Shown: piece after piece, positions 7,106-14,418 of the stretch
Numbering within the stretch: the stretch's first letter is position 1
How the letters are laid out: each line of letters starts with the position of its first letter
Virus genome (UHGV): UHGV-0056970
DNA from: a virus
Reading direction: 5' to 3' (one strand)
Length of the DNA: 14,706 nt
The notes under the pieces: generated by a model
What the model was told of the DNA's origin: nothing
What the model saw: the letters and a program-made list of their open reading frames with translations, nothing else
Database searches by the model: none
Position numbers and translations under genes: made by a program

Positions 7106-7738
7106 TTACCTTTTTCGCCTGTAAATTCTATGTTCGACCATTACGCCGATAATTTTCAACGGGCGTTCAGAGCTATTAATGGTGGGGTAGTCGTCATTAA
7201 GGGGGACCAGTTCATATTGCTGGCGGCCTGAAATATCGGTAAATGTAGGACGGTACTTTTTAAAAGTAGCCTCATTTTCACCATTTTTAGCAACAACAAA
7301 CTCGCCCGGAACGGGCTCTAACTCTGGATCAACAATGATAATGTCGCCTTCTTTAAAGTCAGGCTCCATTGAATCACCTTCTATCCTTAGTGCAAAAGTA
7401 AACTCAGAAATATCAAGGTCAGTCATGATGTATTCGAAGCTACCATCAAATGCATCAATAGGGTGTTTTTCTGCTAACGCCCCAGCCTGGACGTAACTGA
7501 TCAAAGGTACTTTCCTTGAATTCACATCGTCCAGAGCCATGAAAGGCCCACCGTTCATCAACCATGTTGGGTCGCACTTAAGTGCTTTGCTTATTCCTAC
7601 TATGTTGCGAGGCTTTTTAGTTTTTCCATCCTCAATGCTGGCCCATGATTGTTGCCTTATTCCTGCCTTTTCAGCTGCTTGCTCTTGAGTAAGACCAAGT
7701 TCGATTCTTTTTTGTTTTACGCGTTCTGCAAGGCTCAT
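7106..7738 (-). CDS. cI: CI/LexA-type prophage repressor (HTH_XRE N-terminal domain, S24 peptidase C-terminal domain)
   Basis: 210 aa. N-terminal HTH (LGLTQEQAAEKAGIRQQSWASIEDG). Ala-Gly cleavage-site candidate (YVQAGALA). Catalytic Ser in GDSMEP and downstream Lys (TFKKY), the Ser-Lys dyad of self-cleaving repressors. Divergent from a cro-like gene across an operator-rich intergenic region. Confidence 0.9.
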   Translation of the reverse strand: MSLAERVKQKRIELGLTQEQAAEKAGIRQQSWASIEDGKTKKPRNIVGISKALKCDPTWLMNGGPFMALDDVNSRKVPLISYVQAGALAEKHPIDAFDGSFEYIMTDLDISEFTFALRIEGDSMEPDFKEGDIIIVDPELEPVPGEFVVAKNGENEATFKKYRPTFTDISGRQQYELVPLNDDYPTINSSERPLKIIGVMVEHRIYRRKR

Positions 7739-7766
7739 AGCTCCTCCATTCCCATGGCCTCATGGT

Positions 7767-7826
7767 CACAGTTTAAACTGTGATTGACAAACAGTAGTAT
7801 CTGTTCAAAAATACAGATAAAACTGT
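7767..7826. promoter_or_regulatory. Immunity-region operators: three dyad sites (ACAG-N6-CTGT) spanning the divergent cI/cro promoters
   Basis: Site 1 7767..7782 CACAGTTTAAACTGTG (perfect 16-bp palindrome); site 2 7791..7804 ACAGTAGTATCTGT; site 3 7813..7826 ACAGATAAAACTGT. Centre-to-centre spacing about 22-23 bp. TTGACA at 7784..7789 sits between sites 1 and 2; site 3 abuts the cro RBS. Confidence 0.6.
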
Positions 7827-7835
7827 GGAGGTGTT

Positions 7836-8066
7836 ATGGAATCAATTTCTCAAAGATTAAAGAATAAACGTGAAGAGATGAATCTCTCACAAGCGCAATT
7901 GGCTGAATTGGTCGGAATGACCCAGCAGTCATTACAAGCGATCGAGGCGGGTTTAACAAAGAGACCCCGTTACATCATTGAATTGTCTTCAGCCCTGCAT
8001 TGCGATCCTCATTGGTTGCTCTATGGCGAGGGTGCTAATCAGAACGATAGCGCTTCAGGGGTGTAA
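7836..8066 (+). CDS. cro: Cro-like HTH_XRE transcriptional regulator
   Basis: 76 aa. HTH (LSQAQLAELVGMTQQSLQAIEAG) paralogous to the cI N-terminus. RBS GGAGGTG. Divergent from cI. Confidence 0.8.
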   Translation: MESISQRLKNKREEMNLSQAQLAELVGMTQQSLQAIEAGLTKRPRYIIELSSALHCDPHWLLYGEGANQNDSASGV

Positions 8067-8094: not shown

Positions 8095-8646
8095 GTGGGT
8101 ATAGAACCAGAATGGAAAGTTGATAAGCAGCCGCCTTGGCTGGTAGCTGCGATTAAAAAAACGATCACTGATTTGGACGGGGGGTATGCAGAAGCAGCTG
8201 AATGGCTTGGCGTTACTGAAAACGCATTGTTTAACCGCTTACGTGCCGATGGTGATCAAATTTTCCCTCTGGGCTGGGCAATGGTTCTACAGCGTGCTGG
8301 TGGGACGAATCATATCGCCAATGCGATAGCGCGCCACTCGAACGGGGTCTTTGTGCCGCTGGCAGACATTGAGGATGTAGACAACGCCGATATAAACCAG
8401 CGCCTGATGGAGTCTATCGAGTGGATCGGAAAGCACTCACAGTATCTCCGTAAAGCTACAGCTGACGGTGTTATTGACCAGGCAGAACGCGAGCAGATCG
8501 AGGAGAACAGTTATCAGGTGATGGCGAAATGGCAGGAACATTTGACATTGCTTTTCCGTGTCTTTTGCCAGCCAGAAAAGAGTGACGCCCGCGAGTGTGC
8601 AGCTCCGGGCGTCGTGGCGAATAAATCTTTGTGTATGGAGAAATAA
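8095..8646 (+). CDS. Phage CII-like regulatory protein (tentative)
   Basis: 183 aa directly after cro, in the position of lambdoid cII-type regulators. GTG start with RBS AGGGGG. Family assignment from memory only. Confidence 0.45.
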   Translation: MGIEPEWKVDKQPPWLVAAIKKTITDLDGGYAEAAEWLGVTENALFNRLRADGDQIFPLGWAMVLQRAGGTNHIANAIARHSNGVFVPLADIEDVDNADINQRLMESIEWIGKHSQYLRKATADGVIDQAEREQIEENSYQVMAKWQEHLTLLFRVFCQPEKSDARECAAPGVVANKSLCMEK

Positions 8647-8818: not shown

Positions 8819-8998
8819 ATGCGAGAAGTTAACCGGAAGTTCAAAGACCACTACGGCAATCCAGTCAGAGTTATCCGCTGGGAGCCTGAGACACGTCGCG
8901 TCATCTACCTGCGGGAAGGCTATTCCCACGAGTGCTTTAGCCCACTCGATCAGTTTCAACGCAAGTTCAGGGAAGTAGAGGGCAGCCATGAGCAGTAA
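8819..8998 (+). CDS. Small phage protein (59 aa), DUF4222-like
   Basis: RBS GGAGGG then ATG at 8819; MREVNRKFKDHYGNPVRVIRWEPETRRVIYLREGYSHECFSPLDQFQRKFREVEGSHEQ. Stop overlaps the start of the replication gene (ATGAGCAGTAA). Not in the supplied ORF track (under 60 aa). Competes with a longer ORF in another frame (8631..8978). Confidence 0.45.
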   Translation: MREVNRKFKDHYGNPVRVIRWEPETRRVIYLREGYSHECFSPLDQFQRKFREVEGSHEQ

Positions 8999-9899
8999 AT
9001 TACACGGCCTCGTATGGGAAGCATGCGCTTTCAAAGGGCTGATAATCTCAGAAATAGCGGTCATGGCTCGCCTGGCAGATTTCAGTAATGACGAAGGTGT
9101 GTCATGGCCAGCGGTAACCACTATTCAGCGACAGATCGGCGCCAAGAGCGAGAATACTGTCCGCAGCGCTATCAAAAAGCTTCAGGCTAAAGGCTGGCTG
9201 AAGAAGCAGGAACGGCGCGTGGGCGGAAAGAATAATTCAAACGTTTATAAACTCAATGTGGACATGCTTGAACGTGCAGCATCTGAAGCAAAAATCTTCT
9301 ACGCAACGCCACGTGAACAATCAAAATTTGATGCCTCAGAATTTGAGGGTTCAAAATTTGAGGGGTCAAATTCTGATGCCTCAAATAATGGGTCTGTACC
9401 CCCTCAAATATTGCGGGAGGACCCCTCAATGGTTGAAGGCGATCCGTCATTAGATCCGTCATTAGATCCGTCATCTAAAAAACCTTCTTGTCGGGCTCCT
9501 GCGGAACCCGACGATAAGCCGGATCCTGAAGTTGTTATTACCGATAACGCGATCGAAGTTCTGGCACACCTGAATCTGGTCAGCGGTTCCCGTTACCAGA
9601 AATCTAAGACCTCACTGGAGAACATTCGCGCGCGCCTCCGTGAAGGTCATACCGTTAGCGACTTGAAACTGGTAATCGACGTCAAACATGAGCACTGGCA
9701 TGGCAACGACGAGCAATACCAGTACATGCGACCCGAGACACTTTTCGGCCCTAAAAAATTCGAGGGATATCTGCAAAGCGCTATCCGTTGGGATGCCAAA
9801 GGCCGCCCGCCAAGGGAGTTGTGGGACAAAACCAGACCGCGGGATGTTAATTCAATTAGTCCAGTACAAACCACGATTCCACGGGGGTTCCGGGGATGA
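8988..9899 (+). CDS. Replication initiator, lambda O-like (N-terminal HTH/DNA-binding, repeat-containing linker, conserved phage C-terminal domain)
   Basis: 303 aa. The linker region is encoded by tandem 15-bp and 12-bp DNA repeats (iterons), as with lambda ori inside gene O. The C-terminal region (LKLVIDVKHEHWHGNDEQYQYMRPETLFGPKKFEGYL) looks like the conserved C-terminus of phage replisome organisers. Stop overlaps the next start (ATGA). Confidence 0.65.
   Translation: MSSKLHGLVWEACAFKGLIISEIAVMARLADFSNDEGVSWPAVTTIQRQIGAKSENTVRSAIKKLQAKGWLKKQERRVGGKNNSNVYKLNVDMLERAASEAKIFYATPREQSKFDASEFEGSKFEGSNSDASNNGSVPPQILREDPSMVEGDPSLDPSLDPSSKKPSCRAPAEPDDKPDPEVVITDNAIEVLAHLNLVSGSRYQKSKTSLENIRARLREGHTVSDLKLVIDVKHEHWHGNDEQYQYMRPETLFGPKKFEGYLQSAIRWDAKGRPPRELWDKTRPRDVNSISPVQTTIPRGFRG
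9321..9476. repeat. Iteron array (candidate origin of replication) inside the O-like gene
   Basis: Five in-phase tandem 15-bp units at 9321..9395 (TCAAAATTTGATGCC / TCAGAATTTGAGGGT / TCAAAATTTGAGGGG / TCAAATTCTGATGCC / TCAAATAATGGGTCT), two degenerate units at 9404..9418 and 9426..9440, then three 12-bp units GATCCGTCATTA at 9441..9476. Confidence 0.55.
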
Positions 9900-10354
9900 A
9901 CATAGCCAAGTCGATCTTTGAATTTATTGAGAAGAATCCAGGCAAAATGCTGCGCGATATCACTGCGGCATTTCCTGAAACCAAACCGGTAACAGTGAAG
10001 AGCGCTGTTCATCGCCTGTACTACGACGGGGAACTTGCCAGCGTTGAAGTTACTGGTGGGTTTATCTACTTCGTAGCGGGATCCATTGATATTGAAGAGT
10101 ACCTGCCTGGTGGGCTTTCGGGGGAGATTCTTGCCCTTGAAGCGACAGCCAAAAAGCTGGAAGAGAAACGCTATTACCGCCGTGCGGCGACAGTATGGCA
10201 GCAACTTTGTGACAGCAACTGTACGGCTAAAGCAAGAGAGCGGTACCTGCGTCTTAAGAATGCTTCTGTTCGAAACGCCAGAAACATGAATGATTCCGCC
10301 GGGTCATGCTATCTGGCCGAGAATTACTGCGGAGGTGACTTGTGCTCCGATTGA
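9896..10354 (+). CDS. Putative transcriptional regulator (winged-helix-like N-terminus, PerC/ANR-like C-terminal motif), tentative
   Basis: 152 aa. ATGA start-stop overlap with the upstream gene. C-terminal RRAATVWQQLCDSNCTAKARERYLRLKN resembles the RAA..W motif of PerC-family prophage regulators (recollection, not searched). Confidence 0.4.
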   Translation: MNIAKSIFEFIEKNPGKMLRDITAAFPETKPVTVKSAVHRLYYDGELASVEVTGGFIYFVAGSIDIEEYLPGGLSGEILALEATAKKLEEKRYYRRAATVWQQLCDSNCTAKARERYLRLKNASVRNARNMNDSAGSCYLAENYCGGDLCSD

Positions 10355-10536
10355 AGAAGATTTTGATAAGTCTCCGGCGCCTTGTGCATTTGCATCACTG
10401 GCGTAACTGGTGGCAGCACGAAGTTATTTTTCGCAGAAAATATGCACTCCTCAGAAATGACCTTTTCAGCTTTGATCGCCGTTACTGGTTACTGAAAGCA
10501 CTTGTTGATGCTGATCAGCGCAGGGGAAAACTATGA
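10342..10536 (+). CDS. Hypothetical small basic protein (64 aa)
   Basis: GTG start 6 nt after GGAGG. Stop overlaps the ATG of the downstream Dam gene (ATGA), consistent with translational coupling. No recognisable family. Confidence 0.35.
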   Translation: MLRLKKILISLRRLVHLHHWRNWWQHEVIFRRKYALLRNDLFSFDRRYWLLKALVDADQRRGKL

Positions 10537-11486
10537 GTCAGGAAGTACAAGAAGCTATGACCGCAGAAGAGCAAACTTTAACAAAAACCGTCAGCCCTTA
10601 TTGCCTGGCACTTGAGGAACAGCGCCAGCGTAGTGCGCATTATTTAAAAGAAGTCGGGGATCAATGGCGTACCCCTGATCTGCTGTTCTGGGGCGTTAAC
10701 GCTATGTTTGGCCCGCTGGTACTGGACCTGTTTGCAGACGACAGCAATACAAAATGTCCGGCATGGTATACCGCTGAAGATAATGCGCTGACGCAGGACT
10801 GGTCTGGTCGTTTGGTAGAACTCGGAGGAGCGGCCTTTGCTAATCCGCCGTACAGCCGTTCGCAGTACCATGAAAAACAAGCCATCACTGGCATGACTCA
10901 TATTATGAACTATACCGCCGAGCAGTGTGAAAAGGGTGGTCGTTACATTTACCTCGTGAAGTCAGCAACAAGTGAAACATGGTGGCCGGAATATGCCGAT
11001 CACATCATGTTTATTCGTGGTCGTATTGGATTCGATCTCCCAACGTGGTTTGTGCCGGCCGACGAAAAGCAGAAGCCCACCAGCGCCTTCTTTGCCGGGG
11101 CCATTGCGGTATTTGATAAGACCTGGCGCGGTGAACATTTTAGCTATATCGATCGCGTTGAGCTGGAAGCAAAAGGGCGCGCAAGTATGGCGCTGGCTGA
11201 GTTTGCTGCAGGAAAATTCCTGTCACCAGTTTCGCCAGTTCAGTCTCCTGAAGTGATCATCCCCGATGCTGTTGCATCATTGGCTGAGCCTGAATCCCGG
11301 ATCTGGCCACTGGAAGTTGGACTCGTCTTTGGACAGGTACAAGGCGCAGAGGATCTGGAGTTCTCCCAGCAGAACAAGCTGAAGGCCCACATTAACCAGT
11401 TGTGGCTGGAGCGCGTGCCCACCAGCGAAATCATCACCGTTGCTGGTGGGCTGGTCGGCAGCATGAGGGGGACCGCTCATGCGTGA
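10533..11486 (+). CDS. Phage N6-adenine DNA methyltransferase (phage Dam family)
   Basis: 317 aa. WRTP...LDLFA...FANPPYS (NPPY catalytic motif) in the arrangement typical of phage Dam methyltransferases. Overlaps the downstream C5-methyltransferase start by 8 nt. Confidence 0.8.
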   Translation: MSQEVQEAMTAEEQTLTKTVSPYCLALEEQRQRSAHYLKEVGDQWRTPDLLFWGVNAMFGPLVLDLFADDSNTKCPAWYTAEDNALTQDWSGRLVELGGAAFANPPYSRSQYHEKQAITGMTHIMNYTAEQCEKGGRYIYLVKSATSETWWPEYADHIMFIRGRIGFDLPTWFVPADEKQKPTSAFFAGAIAVFDKTWRGEHFSYIDRVELEAKGRASMALAEFAAGKFLSPVSPVQSPEVIIPDAVASLAEPESRIWPLEVGLVFGQVQGAEDLEFSQQNKLKAHINQLWLERVPTSEIITVAGGLVGSMRGTAHA

Positions 11487-13461
11487 GATTATTGTCGATA
11501 ATTTTGCTGGTGGCGGTGGCGCCAGTACAGGTATTGAGCTGGCGATAGGGCGTAGCGTTGATATCGCGATTAACCACGATGTTAACGCCGTTGCTATGCA
11601 CCGCACTAACCATCCCGACACGCTTCACTATTGCGAAAGTGTGTTTGATGTATCCCCATTAGCCGCTACCAGTGGCAAGCCTGTCGGCCTGGCATGGTTC
11701 TCGCCTGACTGTCGTCACTTTTCTAAAGCGAAAGGTGCTAAACCAGTAGAGAAAGCTATTCGAGGGCTGGCATGGATCGTCATTCGTTGGGCGCTGGATG
11801 TTGGCCCGCGAGTCATGATGCTGGAAAACGTCGAAGAGTTTAAAACGTGGGGCCCGTTACTCGCGGCAGAAATGCGACCGGATCCGGCACGCATCGGTGA
11901 AACTTTCAATGCATTTGTCGGGATGCTTACCACCGGTATTCCAGCAGATCATCCTGCACTGGTGGAGTGTTGCGAGTTTCTGGAGTTTTCAGCGGATAGC
12001 GAGCAGGCCAAGCGCTTAATTGCCGGGCTGGGTTATGTCGTCGATTTTCGCGAGCTGCGCGCCTGCGATTATGGCGCGCCAACCATCCGTAAGCGGTTCT
12101 TCATGGTGATGCGCCGGGACGGGAAACCGATAGTCTGGCCGGAAGCCACGCACGGGGATCCGAAGTCTGCCGCCGTGCTGGCGGGCCAGCTTGAGCCGTG
12201 GCGTACAGCTGCGGAATGCATAGACTGGTCAATCCCCGCGCCGAGCATCTTCGGTCGCAAAAAGTCACTGGCAGAGAATACGCTAAAACGGATTGCCCGC
12301 GGCATTCAGCGCTTTGTTATCGAAAGTGCTTCGCCATTCATTGTGAAGTGCAATCACACAACGACACGTGGCAAATACGACTGTTTCCGGGGACAGGCGC
12401 TGGACGATCCGCTACAGACGATTACGAAAACCCACGGCTACGCAATTGCGGTACCTCATCTGACAAAATTCCGAACCGGAGCTACCGGGCAGGAAGTTAC
12501 CGATCCGTTGCCGACGGTGACGGCCGGTACCGCAAAACGCCCGGGCGGGAATGGTCACGCTCTGGGTATTGTTGAAGCAGAGCTGGCGCCGTTCCTGGCT
12601 GGCAATGGCGGCAGCGAGTACCAGGCTAAACCACGCCCGCTCGATAAACCCGCTCACACCATCCTGAAAGAATCGCGCGCCTGTGTCGTCGCTCCGGTTA
12701 TCGCCCGGCAGTTCGGCGCCAGCATCGGACACCGCGCGGATGAGCCCAGCGCAACAATCACAGCTGGTGGCGGCGGTAAATCGCAACTGGTGACGCCTAC
12801 TCTGATCCAGATGGGCTACGGCGAACGCCTAGGGCAGGAGCCGCGCGTATTAAACCTGAATAACCCACTGGGAACTGTAACCGCCGGCGGAAACAAATTC
12901 GCAACGGTGAGCGCATTTCTGGCAAAACACTACGGAGGGAATTATCAGGGCGCCGGCGTGGGGTTGGATGAGCCAGCGCATTCAGTAACGACTGTCGATC
13001 ACCACGCATTAGTCGCTTCTCATCTGGTTAAACTGCGCGGAACCTGCCGCGATGGCCAGCGCACTGACGAGCCGATGCCGACTATCACTGCCGGTGGCCA
13101 GCACGTAGGGGAGGTTAAAACGACTCTGGCGGTCGAGGACTATGACGAAGAGCGAGCGCAGCAGGTGATGGCGTTCCTGCAGGAATACTGCGGAGAAGAA
13201 TGCACCGGGCTGGTGGAAATCGGCGGAGTGACATATCGCATTGTCGACATTGGAATGCGCATGCTGCAGCCACACGAACTTTACCGGGCGCAGGGCTTCC
13301 CCGAGTGGTACATCATTGACCAGGATTACCGCGGCGTGAAATACGCGAAAGATAAGCAGGTTGCGCGCTGTGGCAATGCCGTCCCGCCGCCGTTCGCCGA
13401 AGCGCTGGTTCGCGCCAACTTACCCGAAATGTGCGTGAACAGAGAGGAGCAGGCAGCATGA
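11479..13461 (+). CDS. DNA (cytosine-5) methyltransferase with an unusually long variable region
   Basis: 660 aa. Motif I FAGGGG (res 9-14), catalytic Pro-Cys motif region FSPDCRHFS, motif VI LENVEEF, C-terminal QGFPEWY and GNAVPPPF. About 370 aa lie between the N-terminal catalytic motifs and the C-terminal motifs. Confidence 0.85.
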   Translation: MREIIVDNFAGGGGASTGIELAIGRSVDIAINHDVNAVAMHRTNHPDTLHYCESVFDVSPLAATSGKPVGLAWFSPDCRHFSKAKGAKPVEKAIRGLAWIVIRWALDVGPRVMMLENVEEFKTWGPLLAAEMRPDPARIGETFNAFVGMLTTGIPADHPALVECCEFLEFSADSEQAKRLIAGLGYVVDFRELRACDYGAPTIRKRFFMVMRRDGKPIVWPEATHGDPKSAAVLAGQLEPWRTAAECIDWSIPAPSIFGRKKSLAENTLKRIARGIQRFVIESASPFIVKCNHTTTRGKYDCFRGQALDDPLQTITKTHGYAIAVPHLTKFRTGATGQEVTDPLPTVTAGTAKRPGGNGHALGIVEAELAPFLAGNGGSEYQAKPRPLDKPAHTILKESRACVVAPVIARQFGASIGHRADEPSATITAGGGGKSQLVTPTLIQMGYGERLGQEPRVLNLNNPLGTVTAGGNKFATVSAFLAKHYGGNYQGAGVGLDEPAHSVTTVDHHALVASHLVKLRGTCRDGQRTDEPMPTITAGGQHVGEVKTTLAVEDYDEERAQQVMAFLQEYCGEECTGLVEIGGVTYRIVDIGMRMLQPHELYRAQGFPEWYIIDQDYRGVKYAKDKQVARCGNAVPPPFAEALVRANLPEMCVNREEQAA

Positions 13462-13934
13462 CTTCCTTGACCTTAAGGCAGCAGGAGGTACTGGACCTCC
13501 TGATCGAATATCAGCGTAAACATGGTTTTCCGCCTACAACTTACGAACTGACCATCATGCTGGGGTGCCGGTCCCCCAATGCAGCAGCAACGCACCTCAA
13601 GGCGTTGGAGAAAAAGGGTGTTATCACAATCACCCGCGGGGTTTCTCGCGGTATCAGTATCACCCCTTCGCTGCTGGCCAGAGAAATATCGGTCAATCTC
13701 AACAGCATCGTAAAAGTGAAACTTAATGAAGTTTCCCTCAGACATTTGGAAAAACAACACGAGCAGAATCGAATCCAGCACCCGAGGATCTTCGGGGACT
13801 TTTCGCCCCCGATAACAGACGAAAATGGCTATACGTCAATGACCCTGTGGAGCCTTATGTCCGACCTTGGCCCGCTCTGCTATTGCGGAGGAGATGTTCC
13901 GTTTGAGTTGAAAATAGTGCTGGAGGCAGAATGA
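13458..13934 (+). CDS. LexA DNA-binding-domain protein lacking the S24 peptidase domain
   Basis: ATG at 13458 (RBS GAGAGGAG; ATGA overlap with the methyltransferase stop). The N-terminal 70 aa (LTLRQQEVLDLLIEYQRKHGFPPTTYELTIMLGCRSPNAAATHLKALEKKGVITI) closely resemble the E. coli LexA N-terminal domain. The C-terminal 90 aa have no Ala-Gly / Ser-Lys autocleavage features. Confidence 0.6.
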   Translation: MTSLTLRQQEVLDLLIEYQRKHGFPPTTYELTIMLGCRSPNAAATHLKALEKKGVITITRGVSRGISITPSLLAREISVNLNSIVKVKLNEVSLRHLEKQHEQNRIQHPRIFGDFSPPITDENGYTSMTLWSLMSDLGPLCYCGGDVPFELKIVLEAE

Positions 13935-14329
13935 AGTTTATTCTTCCATTCCCACCCAGCGTGAACACCTACTGGCGGTCCCCAAATAAGGGGCCAGCAA
14001 AAGGTAAACACCTTGTCAGCGCAGCCGGCCGTAAATTCAAACATGCAGTACGTTCAGCGATCATTGAGCAACTGCGTGCAATACCAAAACCATCTACCGC
14101 GTGAGCAACTGTAGAAATTATTCTCTATCCGCCAGACTATCGCCGGCGTGACCTGGACAATTACAACAAGGCACTTCTTGATGCTTTGACTTATGCCGGT
14201 ATCTGGGAGGACGACAACCAGGTTAAGCGTATGGCTATTGAATGGGGTGAAATCGTCAAAGGAGGCAGGGTAGAAATCACCATAGTCTGCTATCAAAAAG
14301 TGGTGGATGTATGTACAGCTGTGGGTTGA
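13931..14329 (+). pseudogene. rusA: rusA-like Holliday-junction resolvase gene interrupted by an in-frame TGA
   Basis: ATG at 13931 overlaps the upstream stop (ATGA). Translation MKFILPFPPSVNTYWRSP...PKPSTA hits TGA at 14102..14104, then continues in the same frame as ATVEIILYPPDYRRRDLDNYNKALLDALTYAGIWEDDNQV... to the stop at 14327..14329. The RusA catalytic Asp cluster (RDLDN, WEDD) lies downstream of the stop. Confidence 0.6.
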
Positions 14330-14418
14330 AAGATTTGCGAGTTGGCAGTAATGTCGAATGGTGCAAACGAAACGGGCGTGCAGGCCCTTTCGTCACTTCA
14401 GAGTGTATGGAGATAAAT

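What the first reader, a model, noticed from the sequence alone, without database searches (positions are those of the whole stretch)
13458..13934. Phage protein with a LexA DNA-binding domain but no autocleavage domain
The first 70 residues look like the LexA N-terminal winged-helix domain, but the C-terminal 90 residues lack the S24 Ala-Gly / Ser-Lys features. Such a protein could occupy SOS boxes without being RecA-cleavable and so hold down host SOS genes or the prophage's own LexA-box-like operator during induction, or act as an uncleavable regulator of late genes. It is translationally coupled to the methyltransferases and rusA.
Basis: partly seen in the sequence, partly recalled or inferred. 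Interest (0 to 1): 0.55.

Follow-up and report, generated by a model that had tools for sequence, protein, structure and literature searches.

The report
Uncleavable phage LexA-like DNA-binding protein
A Klebsiella prophage early gene encodes a protein that joins the DNA-binding head of the SOS repressor LexA to a small, uncharacterised phage domain instead of the self-cleaving tail; it is a real, conserved gene whose DNA target and role are still untested.

Summary
ORF 13458..13934 (+) encodes 158 aa. Residues 1-69 are a full-length LexA winged-helix domain (Pfam PF01726, E 6e-20; about 54% identical to E. coli LexA). There is no S24 peptidase domain, no Ala-Gly site and no Ser/Lys dyad.

The C-terminal 80 residues are not a degenerate LexA tail. 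They form an independent, acidic alpha/beta domain found mostly as stand-alone ~85-aa phage proteins: 506 cluster representatives, no Pfam family, phrog_5792 (function unknown), and no match to any solved fold.

The gene sits in the early-right operon and shares ATGA overlaps with dcm and rusA. It is under strong purifying selection (dN/dS 0.07).

The same slot upstream of rusA holds four variants in other enterobacterial phages:
- the LexA head plus a 40-aa helical tail (SfII, mEp460, Stx2 phages);
- the head plus this domain;
- this domain alone;
- the head fused to RusA.

Three residues cited as important for LexA's DNA binding are replaced (R28T, E44A, E45T), so simple occupation of SOS boxes is doubtful. 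The "SOS box" at 7801..7816 is formed by two adjacent CI/Cro operator arms and scores weakly.

The best-characterised analogue is GIL01 gp6. I found no functional study of the enterobacterial family. This is a new variant of a known kind, of moderate interest.

The parts
13458..13934 (+). Gene for the 158-aa LexA-head / phage-domain protein (stop codon included)
   Evidence: ORF and translation. Full-length homologues of 157-162 aa occur in Klebsiella, Raoultella, Citrobacter, Salmonella, Cronobacter and Franconibacter prophages. dN/dS is 0.066.
13444..13449 (+). Shine-Dalgarno GAGGAG, 8 nt before the ATG
   Evidence: Read directly from the sequence.
13458..13664 (+). Residues 1-69: LexA-type winged helix-turn-helix DNA-binding domain
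   Evidence: PF01726 E 6.4e-20. PDB LexA chains E about 1e-16. phrog_362 E 1.8e-31. AF2 topology H6-22, H28-35, H40-52, E56-58, E66-68.
13572..13613 (+). Residues 39-52: recognition helix, SPNAAATHLKALEK (E. coli LexA has SPNAAEEHLKALAR)
   Evidence: Alignments. S39, N41 and A42 are kept; E44 is Ala and E45 is Thr.
13665..13691 (+). Residues 70-78: flexible linker
   Evidence: Lowest pLDDT block in the full-length model (62). Locally relaxed dN/dS of 0.37 for residues 70-79.
13692..13931 (+). Residues 79-158: acidic alpha/beta domain of a widespread phage family that is usually stand-alone (phrog_5792-like; no Pfam family)
   Evidence: 506 representatives at E<=1e-3, mostly 80-100 aa. No Pfam hit. 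phrog_5792 and phrog_29443. AF2 pLDDT 93. No PDB fold match. pI 5.2, family median 5.5.
10533..11486 (+). Phage Dam (N6-adenine) methyltransferase, upstream in the same operon
   Evidence: PF05869 E 1.8e-42. TIGR01712 E 3.9e-55.
11479..13461 (+). C5-cytosine DNA methyltransferase; its TGA stop overlaps the ATG of the LexA-like gene
   Evidence: PF00145 E 7e-19. ATGA overlap read.
13931..14329 (+). rusA (Holliday-junction resolvase); its ATG overlaps the stop of the LexA-like gene. This copy carries an in-frame TGA at 14102-14104.
   Evidence: Sequence. Alignment to the intact Kp4866-6 rusA. PF05866 on the orthologue in L005.
7801..7816 (.). It is made of two adjoining CI/Cro operator arms and is a weak LexA-box match.
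   Evidence: 11.8 bits against 13.9-26.6 for real sites.

Best explanation
**Shown.**
- The gene encodes a two-domain protein: a LexA-derived winged-helix DNA-binding head, a flexible linker, and an unrelated small acidic phage domain.
- It has no S24 peptidase domain, no cleavage site and no catalytic dyad.
- It lies inside the rightward early operon (cro-cII-O-PerC-Dam-Dcm-X-RusA-...-Q) and is translationally coupled on both sides.
- No sigma-70-like promoter on its strand was found in 9800-14706.

**Inferred.**
- It is made as a delayed-early protein after induction or infection, not in the lysogen.
- Lacking the cleavage apparatus, it cannot be inactivated through the RecA-stimulated self-cleavage that removes LexA and CI.
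- It binds a palindromic operator as a dimer. The C-terminal domain stands in for LexA's S24 domain as the module that holds two heads together, or that recruits a partner.
- Because S39, N41 and A42 are kept but R28, E44 and E45 are replaced, the operator is probably related to the CTGT-type SOS half-site without being identical to it.
- The protein would therefore act as a RecA-insensitive regulator, most simply a repressor, on a restricted set of phage or host sites rather than on the whole SOS regulon.

The actual DNA target and the sign of regulation are not known.
For: **Domain assignments.**

**Independence of the two domains.** Full-length pTM is 0.45 with a low-confidence linker. The C-terminal domain folds confidently on its own (pLDDT 93).

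**Both domains are conserved.** dN/dS is 0.08 in the head. dN in the tail is 0.22, with synonymous sites saturated.

**Gene order.** The same order is found in four Klebsiella genomes, and the SfII, mEp460 and Stx2a_WGPS2 phages have the same arrangement without the Dcm gene. No plus-strand promoter-like site lies in 9800-14706.

**Interchangeable C-terminal partners on the same head, in the same slot.**
- A 40-aa helical tail.
- This domain.
- RusA. RusA is a homodimer by my own knowledge of the RusA literature.

**The C-terminal domain occurs as tandem copies in single polypeptides.** P0076 shows this directly, and several other proteins match in more than one stretch. This is consistent with self-association.

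**The tail family is acidic** (median pI 5.5), so it is unlikely to bind DNA itself.

**Precedent.** GIL01 gp6 is a phage-encoded truncated LexA head that binds its own palindrome and regulates a phage promoter (PMC6182141).
Against: - No binding site was identified.
  - No palindrome is over-represented in the genome of the near-identical phage Kp4866-6.
  - No conserved intergenic palindrome was seen in L005.
- Dimerisation by the C-terminal domain is inferred, not modelled.
- The C-terminal domain is widespread as a stand-alone protein in virulent phages (SPO1-like, T5-like and jumbo phages). It therefore has a function of its own, which need not be dimerisation.
- Sibling lineages keep E45 or D45, so specificity may differ between lineages.
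- Expression timing is inferred from gene position only.
Confidence: 0.45

Rival explanations
1. True LexA mimic. The head binds canonical host SOS boxes. Because it is uncleavable, it re-imposes repression of the SOS regulon once the host LexA has been destroyed. That regulon includes LexA-controlled antirepressors of competing prophages and colicins. This would be a phage anti-SOS function.
For: - The head is 54% identical to E. coli LexA, with S39, P40, N41, A42, A43, H46, L47, K48 and the wing residues SRGI kept.
- Most sibling lineages keep E or D at position 45.
- Strong SOS boxes exist in related phage genomes:
  - inside the cI genes of SfII, mEp460 and Stx2a_WGPS2;
  - at the 5' end of the late-region methylase gene, including the near-identical Kp4866-6 (22.6 bits).
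Against: - In this protein E45 is Thr, E44 is Ala and R28 is Thr. N41 and E45 are described as the key base contacts, and E45K as abolishing specific recA-box binding (10.1101/2020.07.14.201889; PMC3091678).
- No family member keeps R28 or E44.
- GIL01 gp6 is 44% identical to its host LexA head yet recognises a different sequence (PMC6182141).
- The late-methylase SOS box also occurs in phages that do not appear among the listed LexA-head hits, such as phiKO2 and phiP27. It therefore needs no phage-encoded partner.
Confidence: 0.2
2. DNA-tethered effector. The working part is the C-terminal phage domain, a protein-binding module that functions alone in many phages. The LexA head only localises it on DNA, for example near recombination or replication intermediates handled by the neighbouring RusA.
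For: - The domain is usually a stand-alone ~85-aa protein and is acidic.
- In six enterobacterial viral contigs the stand-alone form occupies exactly this slot, with its stop overlapping the rusA start.
- It lies next to rusA in Vibrio phage 1.178.O and near it in Pantoea phage PdC23.
- The head is fused directly to RusA in Kluyvera and Klebsiella prophages.
Against: - RusA lies within 3 kb of the domain in only 7 of 78 viral loci. Neighbours are otherwise very diverse: 61 clusters among 73 downstream genes.
- No partner is known.
- The strong conservation of the recognition helix argues for sequence-specific rather than generic DNA tethering.
Confidence: 0.2
3. gp6-like activator. The protein binds a phage promoter and activates transcription, as GIL01 gp6 does at P3.
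For: The precedent is PMC6182141. The protein is an early gene product with a truncated LexA head.
Against: - Identity to gp6 is only 29%, so the two were acquired independently, each from its own host's LexA.
- Lambdoid late genes are normally turned on by Q antitermination (established knowledge), and Q genes are present in these prophages.
- No candidate site was found.
Confidence: 0.1
4. Accidental gene fusion or decaying gene with no function.
For: Deletion and fusion variants exist in this slot: a Dam fragment fused to the domain (P0056), frameshifted copies, and phrog_29443, which looks like a Dcm N-terminus joined to the domain.
Against: - dN/dS is 0.066.
- The two-domain architecture is kept down to 46% identity in at least four enterobacterial lineages, with hundreds of member sequences.
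- The gene has a good Shine-Dalgarno sequence and is translationally coupled.
Confidence: 0.03

Closest known systems
E. coli LexA, N-terminal DNA-binding domain (PDB 1LEA, 1JHF, 3JSO)
   Same: Same winged-helix fold. Gap-free alignment over residues 1-69 at 54% identity. S39, N41, A42, H46, K48, K53 and the wing SRGI are kept.
   Different: No S24 domain, no Ala84-Gly85 site and no Ser119/Lys156 dyad. R28T, E44A and E45T. It is phage-encoded in an early lytic operon, and its C-terminus is an unrelated domain.
GIL01 gp6 (Bacillus tectivirus; PMC6182141)
   Same: A phage-encoded LexA head without the cleavage domain. It is expressed early and regulates phage transcription by binding its own palindrome.
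   Different: gp6 is 66 aa and head-only. It is 29% identical to this protein, derives from Bacillus LexA, sits in a non-lambdoid genome, and is a proven activator. This protein has an extra 80-aa domain and no known target.
'LexA DNA binding domain protein' of lambdoid phages (SfII_44, mEp460_046, Stx2a_WGPS2_21; PHROG 362)
   Same: The head is 66% identical. The gene occupies the same slot between Dam and rusA, with overlapping start and stop codons.
   Different: Those proteins are about 108 aa and end in a roughly 40-aa helical tail (…LLRALVAGEENAR…). Most keep E45. None of these proteins has been functionally studied in the papers I could search.
LexA-head::RusA fusion proteins (Kluyvera, Klebsiella; P0050, P0051, P0059)
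   Same: Same head, same slot and same neighbouring genes.
   Different: The head is joined through a 12-aa linker directly to a complete RusA. The small phage domain is absent.
Stand-alone phrog_5792-like proteins (Pantoea PdC23 pdc_056, Bacillus phages Grass and SBSphiJ, Bas81_0038)
   Same: Homologous to residues 79-158 at 35-49% identity, with the shared motif N-x-N…VKL…PP-x-x-D-E-x-G-Y…QLW-x-LM-x-x-FG…PFE. The predicted fold is the same (BFVD TM 0.8).
   Different: They have no DNA-binding head and occur in virulent as well as temperate phages. Their function is unknown. Some are wrongly named 'LexA' or 'SOS regulatory protein' by annotation transfer.
Non-cleavable LexA mutants (e.g. S119A), and anti-SOS factors such as GIL01 gp7 or plasmid PsiB (my own knowledge, plus PMC6182141 for gp7)
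   Same: They are functional analogues if the protein dampens SOS-controlled genes independently of RecA.
   Different: Those act through an intact LexA or through RecA. This would be a separate polypeptide with altered contact residues. No such activity has been shown.

Membership tests
LexA repressor (NCBIfam TIGR00498, equivalog) | N-terminal LexA-type winged-helix DNA-binding domain (PF01726) | tested here: met
   PF01726 matches residues 1-65 of 65 profile positions, E 6.4e-20. PDB LexA chains E about 1e-16.
LexA repressor (NCBIfam TIGR00498, equivalog) | C-terminal S24 peptidase domain with the Ser/Lys catalytic dyad | tested here: not met
   No PF00717 hit, while the window's own CI scores E 6.6e-22 in the same search. 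LexA's C-terminal half aligns at 0.1 bits.
LexA repressor (NCBIfam TIGR00498, equivalog) | Ala-Gly autocleavage site in the linker | tested here: not met
   There is no Ala-Gly dipeptide after residue 69 (translation).
LexA repressor (NCBIfam TIGR00498, equivalog) | Whole-protein score above the curated cut-off | tested here: not met
   62.2 bits against a cut-off of 110.95. Only profile positions 1-71 of 203 are matched.
LexA repressor (NCBIfam TIGR00498, equivalog) | Conservation of the residues that read the SOS box (S39, N41, A42, E44, E45) and of backbone contact R28 | tested here: inconclusive
   S39, N41 and A42 are kept. E44A, E45T and R28T are replaced. The residue list comes from PMC3091678 and 10.1101/2020.07.14.201889.
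LexA repressor (NCBIfam TIGR00498, equivalog) | Binds CTGT-N8-ACAG SOS boxes and represses SOS genes | not testable with these tools
   Needs EMSA, ChIP or reporter assays.
Truncated phage LexA homologues (GIL01 gp6 type) | Phage-encoded LexA head lacking the cleavage domain | tested here: met
   for the domains. Prophage context.
Truncated phage LexA homologues (GIL01 gp6 type) | Sequence relationship to gp6 itself | tested here: inconclusive
   29% identity over 65 residues, pairwise E 2e-6. That is lower than its 54% identity to E. coli LexA, so the two are most likely independent acquisitions.
Truncated phage LexA homologues (GIL01 gp6 type) | Binds a phage promoter palindrome and activates late transcription | not testable with these tools
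   No candidate site was found. Needs experiment.
Lambdoid 'LexA DNA binding domain protein' (PHROG 362) | Profile match, plus position between the Dam methyltransferase and rusA in the early-right operon | tested here: met
   phrog_362 E 1.8e-31 over residues 1-71. Gene order. In this window a Dcm gene is inserted between Dam and the LexA-like gene.
Lambdoid 'LexA DNA binding domain protein' (PHROG 362) | Short helical C-terminal tail (about 40 aa) | tested here: not met
   The tail is replaced by the 80-aa phrog_5792-like domain. The alignment stops at residue 68.
phrog_5792-like small phage proteins (unnamed family) | Sequence and fold match over the ~80-aa domain | tested here: met
   506 representatives. 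phrog_5792 E 2e-6 and phrog_29443 E 8e-45. BFVD hits at E 2.6e-9 and 1.5e-8, TM 0.8.

The most novel reading that the evidence does not exclude
Lambdoid phages of Enterobacteriaceae, including Stx2 phages, carry a family of RecA-proof LexA heads mounted on interchangeable dimerising or partner modules: a helical tail, a new-fold phage domain, or RusA. After induction these would take over SOS-type operators that the cleaved host LexA has vacated. Candidate sites are the consensus SOS boxes inside SfII-type cI genes and at the start of the late-region methylase gene. The proteins would thereby set the timing of the lytic programme, or silence the host SOS response and rival prophages.
Probability: 0.15. 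Interest if true: 0.7.

Novelty: new variant of a known kind. Interest (0 to 1): 0.4.

Why it matters
Truncated LexA heads sit in the early operons of many lambdoid phages, including Shiga-toxin phages. Databases call them "SOS-response repressor and protease LexA" although they have no protease domain.

If they bind SOS-type operators they would be insensitive to RecA. They could then shape induction kinetics, toxin expression, competition between prophages, or the host's mutagenic response. All of these are medically relevant in Klebsiella and STEC.

The C-terminal domain is a widespread phage protein family with no known function and no solved fold. Its fusion to a DNA-binding head is one of the few handles on what it does.

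None of this has been tested, and the architecture has a characterised precedent in GIL01 gp6. The finding is therefore a solid lead rather than a surprise.

Tried and rejected
- **Remnant of S24 in the C-terminal half.** None was found.
- **Known fold for the C-terminal domain.**
  - Foldseek against PDB gave best E 0.42, TM about 0.3, to Spt5-NGN and RRM-like folds. Neither is significant.
  - The afdb50 library was unavailable.
- **Recurrent fusion partners of the C-terminal domain.** Pfam on 48 longer homologues gave only singletons and spurious repeat proteins.
- **General RusA linkage of the C-terminal domain.** Only 7 of 78 viral loci have RusA nearby. The linkage is real for the enterobacterial module only.
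- **A repeated operator for the protein in the phage genome.** No palindromic 5-mer pair exceeds shuffled expectation in Kp4866-6, apart from a likely immunity operator. There are no convincing intergenic palindromes in L005.
- **The 7801..7816 box as a dedicated target.** It is weak and is explained by the operator layout.
- **The second exact CTGT-N8-ACAG at 12381.** It lies inside dcm, has a GC-rich spacer and scores -5.7 bits.
- **Co-occurrence of the late-methylase SOS box with the LexA-head gene.** The lists overlap, but phages that do not appear among the listed LexA-head hits also have the box.
- **Defence or anti-defence annotation.** No PADLOC hit for the protein.
- **Literature on the enterobacterial protein.** Nothing was found.
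- **Technical failures.** The search for related loci with the 88-sequence alignment failed and was repeated with 10 sequences. The LexA-DNA structure paper (Zhang et al. 2010) is not in the held library.
Full report
**1. Observation**

The ORF at 13458..13934 (+) is real.
- It starts with ATG, preceded by GAGGAG 8 nt upstream.
- Its start overlaps the stop of the upstream C5-methyltransferase gene (ATGA). Its stop overlaps the start of rusA (ATGA).
- Homologues begin M-(T/I/M)-(S/K)-L-T, which supports this ATG over the upstream GTG at 13431.

Residues 1-65 match Pfam LexA_DNA_bind over the whole profile (E 6.4e-20). Residues 1-69 align without gaps to E. coli LexA chains in the PDB (E about 1e-16), at 54% identity. 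AF2 gives three helices and a two-strand wing.

There is no S24 peptidase hit, although the window's own CI repressor scores E 6.6e-22 for S24 in the same search. The NCBIfam lexA model is matched only over positions 1-71 and falls well below its cut-off. There is no Ala-Gly after residue 69.

**2. The C-terminal half is a separate, widespread phage domain**

An exhaustive HMMER search with residues 66-158 found 506 cluster representatives at E<=1e-3. Most are stand-alone proteins of 80-100 aa. They share the motif N-x-N…V-K-L…P-P-x-x-D-E-x-G-Y…Q-L-W-x-L-M-x-x-F-G…P-F-E.

| Test | Result |
|---|---|
| Pfam on family members | no family |
| PHROGs | phrog_5792 and phrog_29443, both function unknown |
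| AF2 with an 88-sequence alignment | confident alpha/beta model, pLDDT 93 |
| Foldseek against PDB | best E 0.42 |
| Foldseek against viral models | only uncharacterised proteins (Bacillus phage Grass, Pseudomonas PaBG, T5-like phages) |

The family is acidic: median pI 5.5, and 5.2 for this copy, against 9.7 for the LexA head.

In the full-length model the two domains are independent (pTM 0.45) and are joined by a low-confidence linker at residues 70-79.

A weak resemblance of the D-E-N-G-Y stretch to an EF-hand loop fails at the metal-ligand positions and was rejected.

**3. Context and conservation**

The window is a lambdoid prophage arm:

| Coordinates | Strand | Gene |
|---|---|---|
| 2877-4043 | - | integrase |
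| 7106-7738 | - | CI (HTH plus S24) |
| 7836-8066 | + | Cro |
| 8095-8646 | + | CII |
| 8988-9899 | + | O-like initiator |
| 9896-10354 | + | PerC-like protein |
| 10533-11486 | + | Dam |
| 11479-13461 | + | Dcm |
| 13458-13934 | + | the LexA-like gene |
| 13931-14329 | + | rusA |
| from 14419 | + | AntA-like gene |

No plus-strand promoter-like site lies in 9800-14706. The gene is therefore most likely transcribed with the PR early operon. That is inferred, not shown.

The order cII … O, PerC, Dam, Dcm, LexA-like, RusA, KilA-N, DUF968/HNH, Q recurs in Klebsiella genomes. Klebsiella phage Kp4866-6 carries a 99.4% identical copy.

Full-length two-domain homologues occur in prophages of Klebsiella, Raoultella, Citrobacter, Salmonella, Cronobacter and Franconibacter, down to 46% identity. 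NCBI names them "SOS-response repressor and protease LexA", which is a misnomer.

dN/dS against a 73%-identical copy:

| Region | dN/dS |
|---|---|
| whole gene | 0.066 |
| LexA head | 0.08 |
| linker | 0.37 |
| C-terminal domain | not computable (dN 0.22, synonymous sites saturated) |

**4. One slot, four architectures**

The position just upstream of rusA holds one of four variants:
- (a) The LexA head plus a roughly 40-aa helical tail. This is seen in SfII, SfIV, SfV, mEp460, cdtI and many Stx2 phages, where the head is about 66% identical to this one, and in Salmonella, Enterobacter and Leclercia prophages.
- (b) The head plus the phage domain (this window).
- (c) The phage domain alone, 91 aa, with its stop overlapping the rusA start. 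Six enterobacterial viral contigs show this.
- (d) The head fused through a 12-aa linker to a complete RusA, in Kluyvera and Klebsiella. This was confirmed as one ORF in a complete genome.

A Raoultella/Klebsiella protein, P0048, has the same recognition helix (…SPNAAATH…) but the short tail. The C-terminal module has therefore been swapped on a constant head.

Outside this enterobacterial module the phage domain shows no general linkage to RusA (7 of 78 viral loci).

**5. What the head is likely to read**

The literature in the held library lists S39, N41, A42, E44 and E45 as LexA's DNA-contacting residues (PMC3091678).
- N41 and E45 are described as the key base contacts, and R28 as a backbone contact.
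- E45K is reported to abolish specific recA-box binding (bioRxiv 10.1101/2020.07.14.201889). [quoted passage not shown]

This protein keeps S39, N41 and A42 but has A44, T45 and T28. No member of the phage family keeps R28 or E44. Position 45 is E or D in most lineages, T in the Klebsiella lineage, and L in one other.

GIL01 gp6 is 44% identical to its host LexA head yet recognises a different palindrome (PMC6182141). I therefore infer a related but altered specificity. This is an inference.

**6. Candidate sites**

*The exact CTGT-N8-ACAG at 7801..7816.* It lies between the -35 TTGACA (7784-7789) and the cro start. It is composed of the right arm of one ACAG-N6-CTGT operator and the left arm of the next. 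Three such operators are centred near 7774.5, 7797.5 and 7820.

On a rough matrix built from E. coli SOS boxes recalled from memory, it scores 11.8 bits. The training sites score 13.9-26.6.

The two relatives whose cI-cro region I could read, SfII and L006, carry a LexA-head gene but no SOS-like box there.

*Strong SOS boxes in related phages.* There are two classes.
- The first lies inside the cI genes of SfII, mEp460 and Stx2a_WGPS2 (25.5-26.6 bits).
- The second lies at codons 3-9 of a late-region DNA methylase gene downstream of Q. Kp4866-6 has it (22.6 bits).
  - It is conserved in E. coli, Klebsiella, Morganella and Hafnia phages and in phiKO2.
  - CTG and CAG are maintained by codon choice while the amino acids vary.

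The second class also occurs in phages that do not appear among the listed LexA-head hits, such as phiKO2 and phiP27. It is presumably a host-LexA site. It is a candidate target for the phage protein, not an established one.

No repeated palindrome stands out in the Kp4866-6 genome.

**7. Comparison with known systems**

The protein is not a LexA family member in the equivalog sense. Three defining features were tested and not met: the S24 domain, the cleavage site and the model cut-off.

It works most like GIL01 gp6, a phage-encoded truncated LexA head that regulates a phage promoter (PMC6182141). It is only 29% identical to gp6 and was evidently derived independently from an enterobacterial LexA.

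It belongs to the lambdoid "LexA DNA binding domain protein" group (PHROG 362) by its head and its position, but differs in its C-terminal module.

Four literature searches found no functional work on the enterobacterial proteins.

**8. Verdict**

My best explanation, at confidence 0.45, is a RecA-insensitive, early-expressed, dimeric DNA-binding regulator. Its C-terminal phage domain replaces S24 as the oligomerisation or partner module, and its operator is related to, but probably not identical with, the SOS box.

| Rival | Confidence |
|---|---|
| genuine SOS-box mimic | 0.2 |
| DNA-tethered effector in which the phage domain is the active part | 0.2 |
| gp6-like activator | 0.1 |
| non-functional fusion | 0.03 |

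Novelty: a new variant of a known kind. Interest: 0.4.

Noticed in passing
window 13931-14329 (stop at 14102-14104): This copy of rusA carries an in-frame TGA, where the intact Kp4866-6 gene has CCA. A few neighbouring bases also differ, and the rest of the gene stays in frame. It is either a pseudogene or needs read-through.
   Followed up: partly
window 7766-7828: There are three operators of the form (c/a)ACAG-N6-CTGT(g/t), spaced about 22-23 bp apart between cI and cro, with a perfect -35 TTGACA at 7784-7789. They use the same tetranucleotide as the LexA half-site, but in the opposite arrangement.
   Followed up: partly
window 99-1010 (-) and 1091-2824 (-): A D12-class adenine methyltransferase matches PD-Lambda-5_B (E 2e-123). 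Next to it is a 577-aa AAA_15/AAA_21 ATPase. Both lie just beyond the prophage integrase. This is probably a PD-Lambda-5-type defence pair at the prophage end.
   Followed up: partly
L001:446-465 (SfII), L092:3546-3565 (mEp460), L093:2233-2252 (Stx2a_WGPS2): The cI genes of these phages contain a near-consensus SOS box in the part that codes for the linker between the HTH and S24 domains. On the coding strand it reads TACTGTATATAAAAACAGTA, which matches the umuDC box as I recalled it. It scores 25.5-26.6 bits. All three phages also carry the LexA-head gene.
   Followed up: partly
L090:32126-32145 (Kp4866-6); same offset in L092, L093, L094, L006, L095, L096, L098, L099: An SOS box of 18.6-22.6 bits sits at codons 3-9 of a late-region DNA adenine methylase gene downstream of Q. 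CTG and CAG are preserved by codon choice while the residues vary. It is also present in phiKO2 and phiP27, which do not appear among the listed LexA-head hits.
   Followed up: partly
L002:5001-5249 (Pantoea phage PdC23 pdc_056); L003:4977-5285 (Vibrio phage 230E39-1 P0070): Stand-alone copies of the C-terminal domain are annotated 'SOS regulatory protein' or 'SOS-response repressor and protease LexA'. At 82 and 102 aa they are too short to hold a LexA head as well as this domain, and neither phage turned up in the LexA-head search. The name was evidently transferred from the fused proteins.
   Followed up: yes
window 14419-14706 (+): The gene after rusA is AntA/AntB antirepressor-like (PF08346, E 6.6e-21). 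Related Klebsiella prophages have a KilA-N gene in this position instead.
   Followed up: no
window 14330-14418: The intergenic stretch after rusA contains an imperfect hairpin (cgaaacgggc…gccctttcg) with no following T-run. Its role is unknown (read).
   Followed up: no
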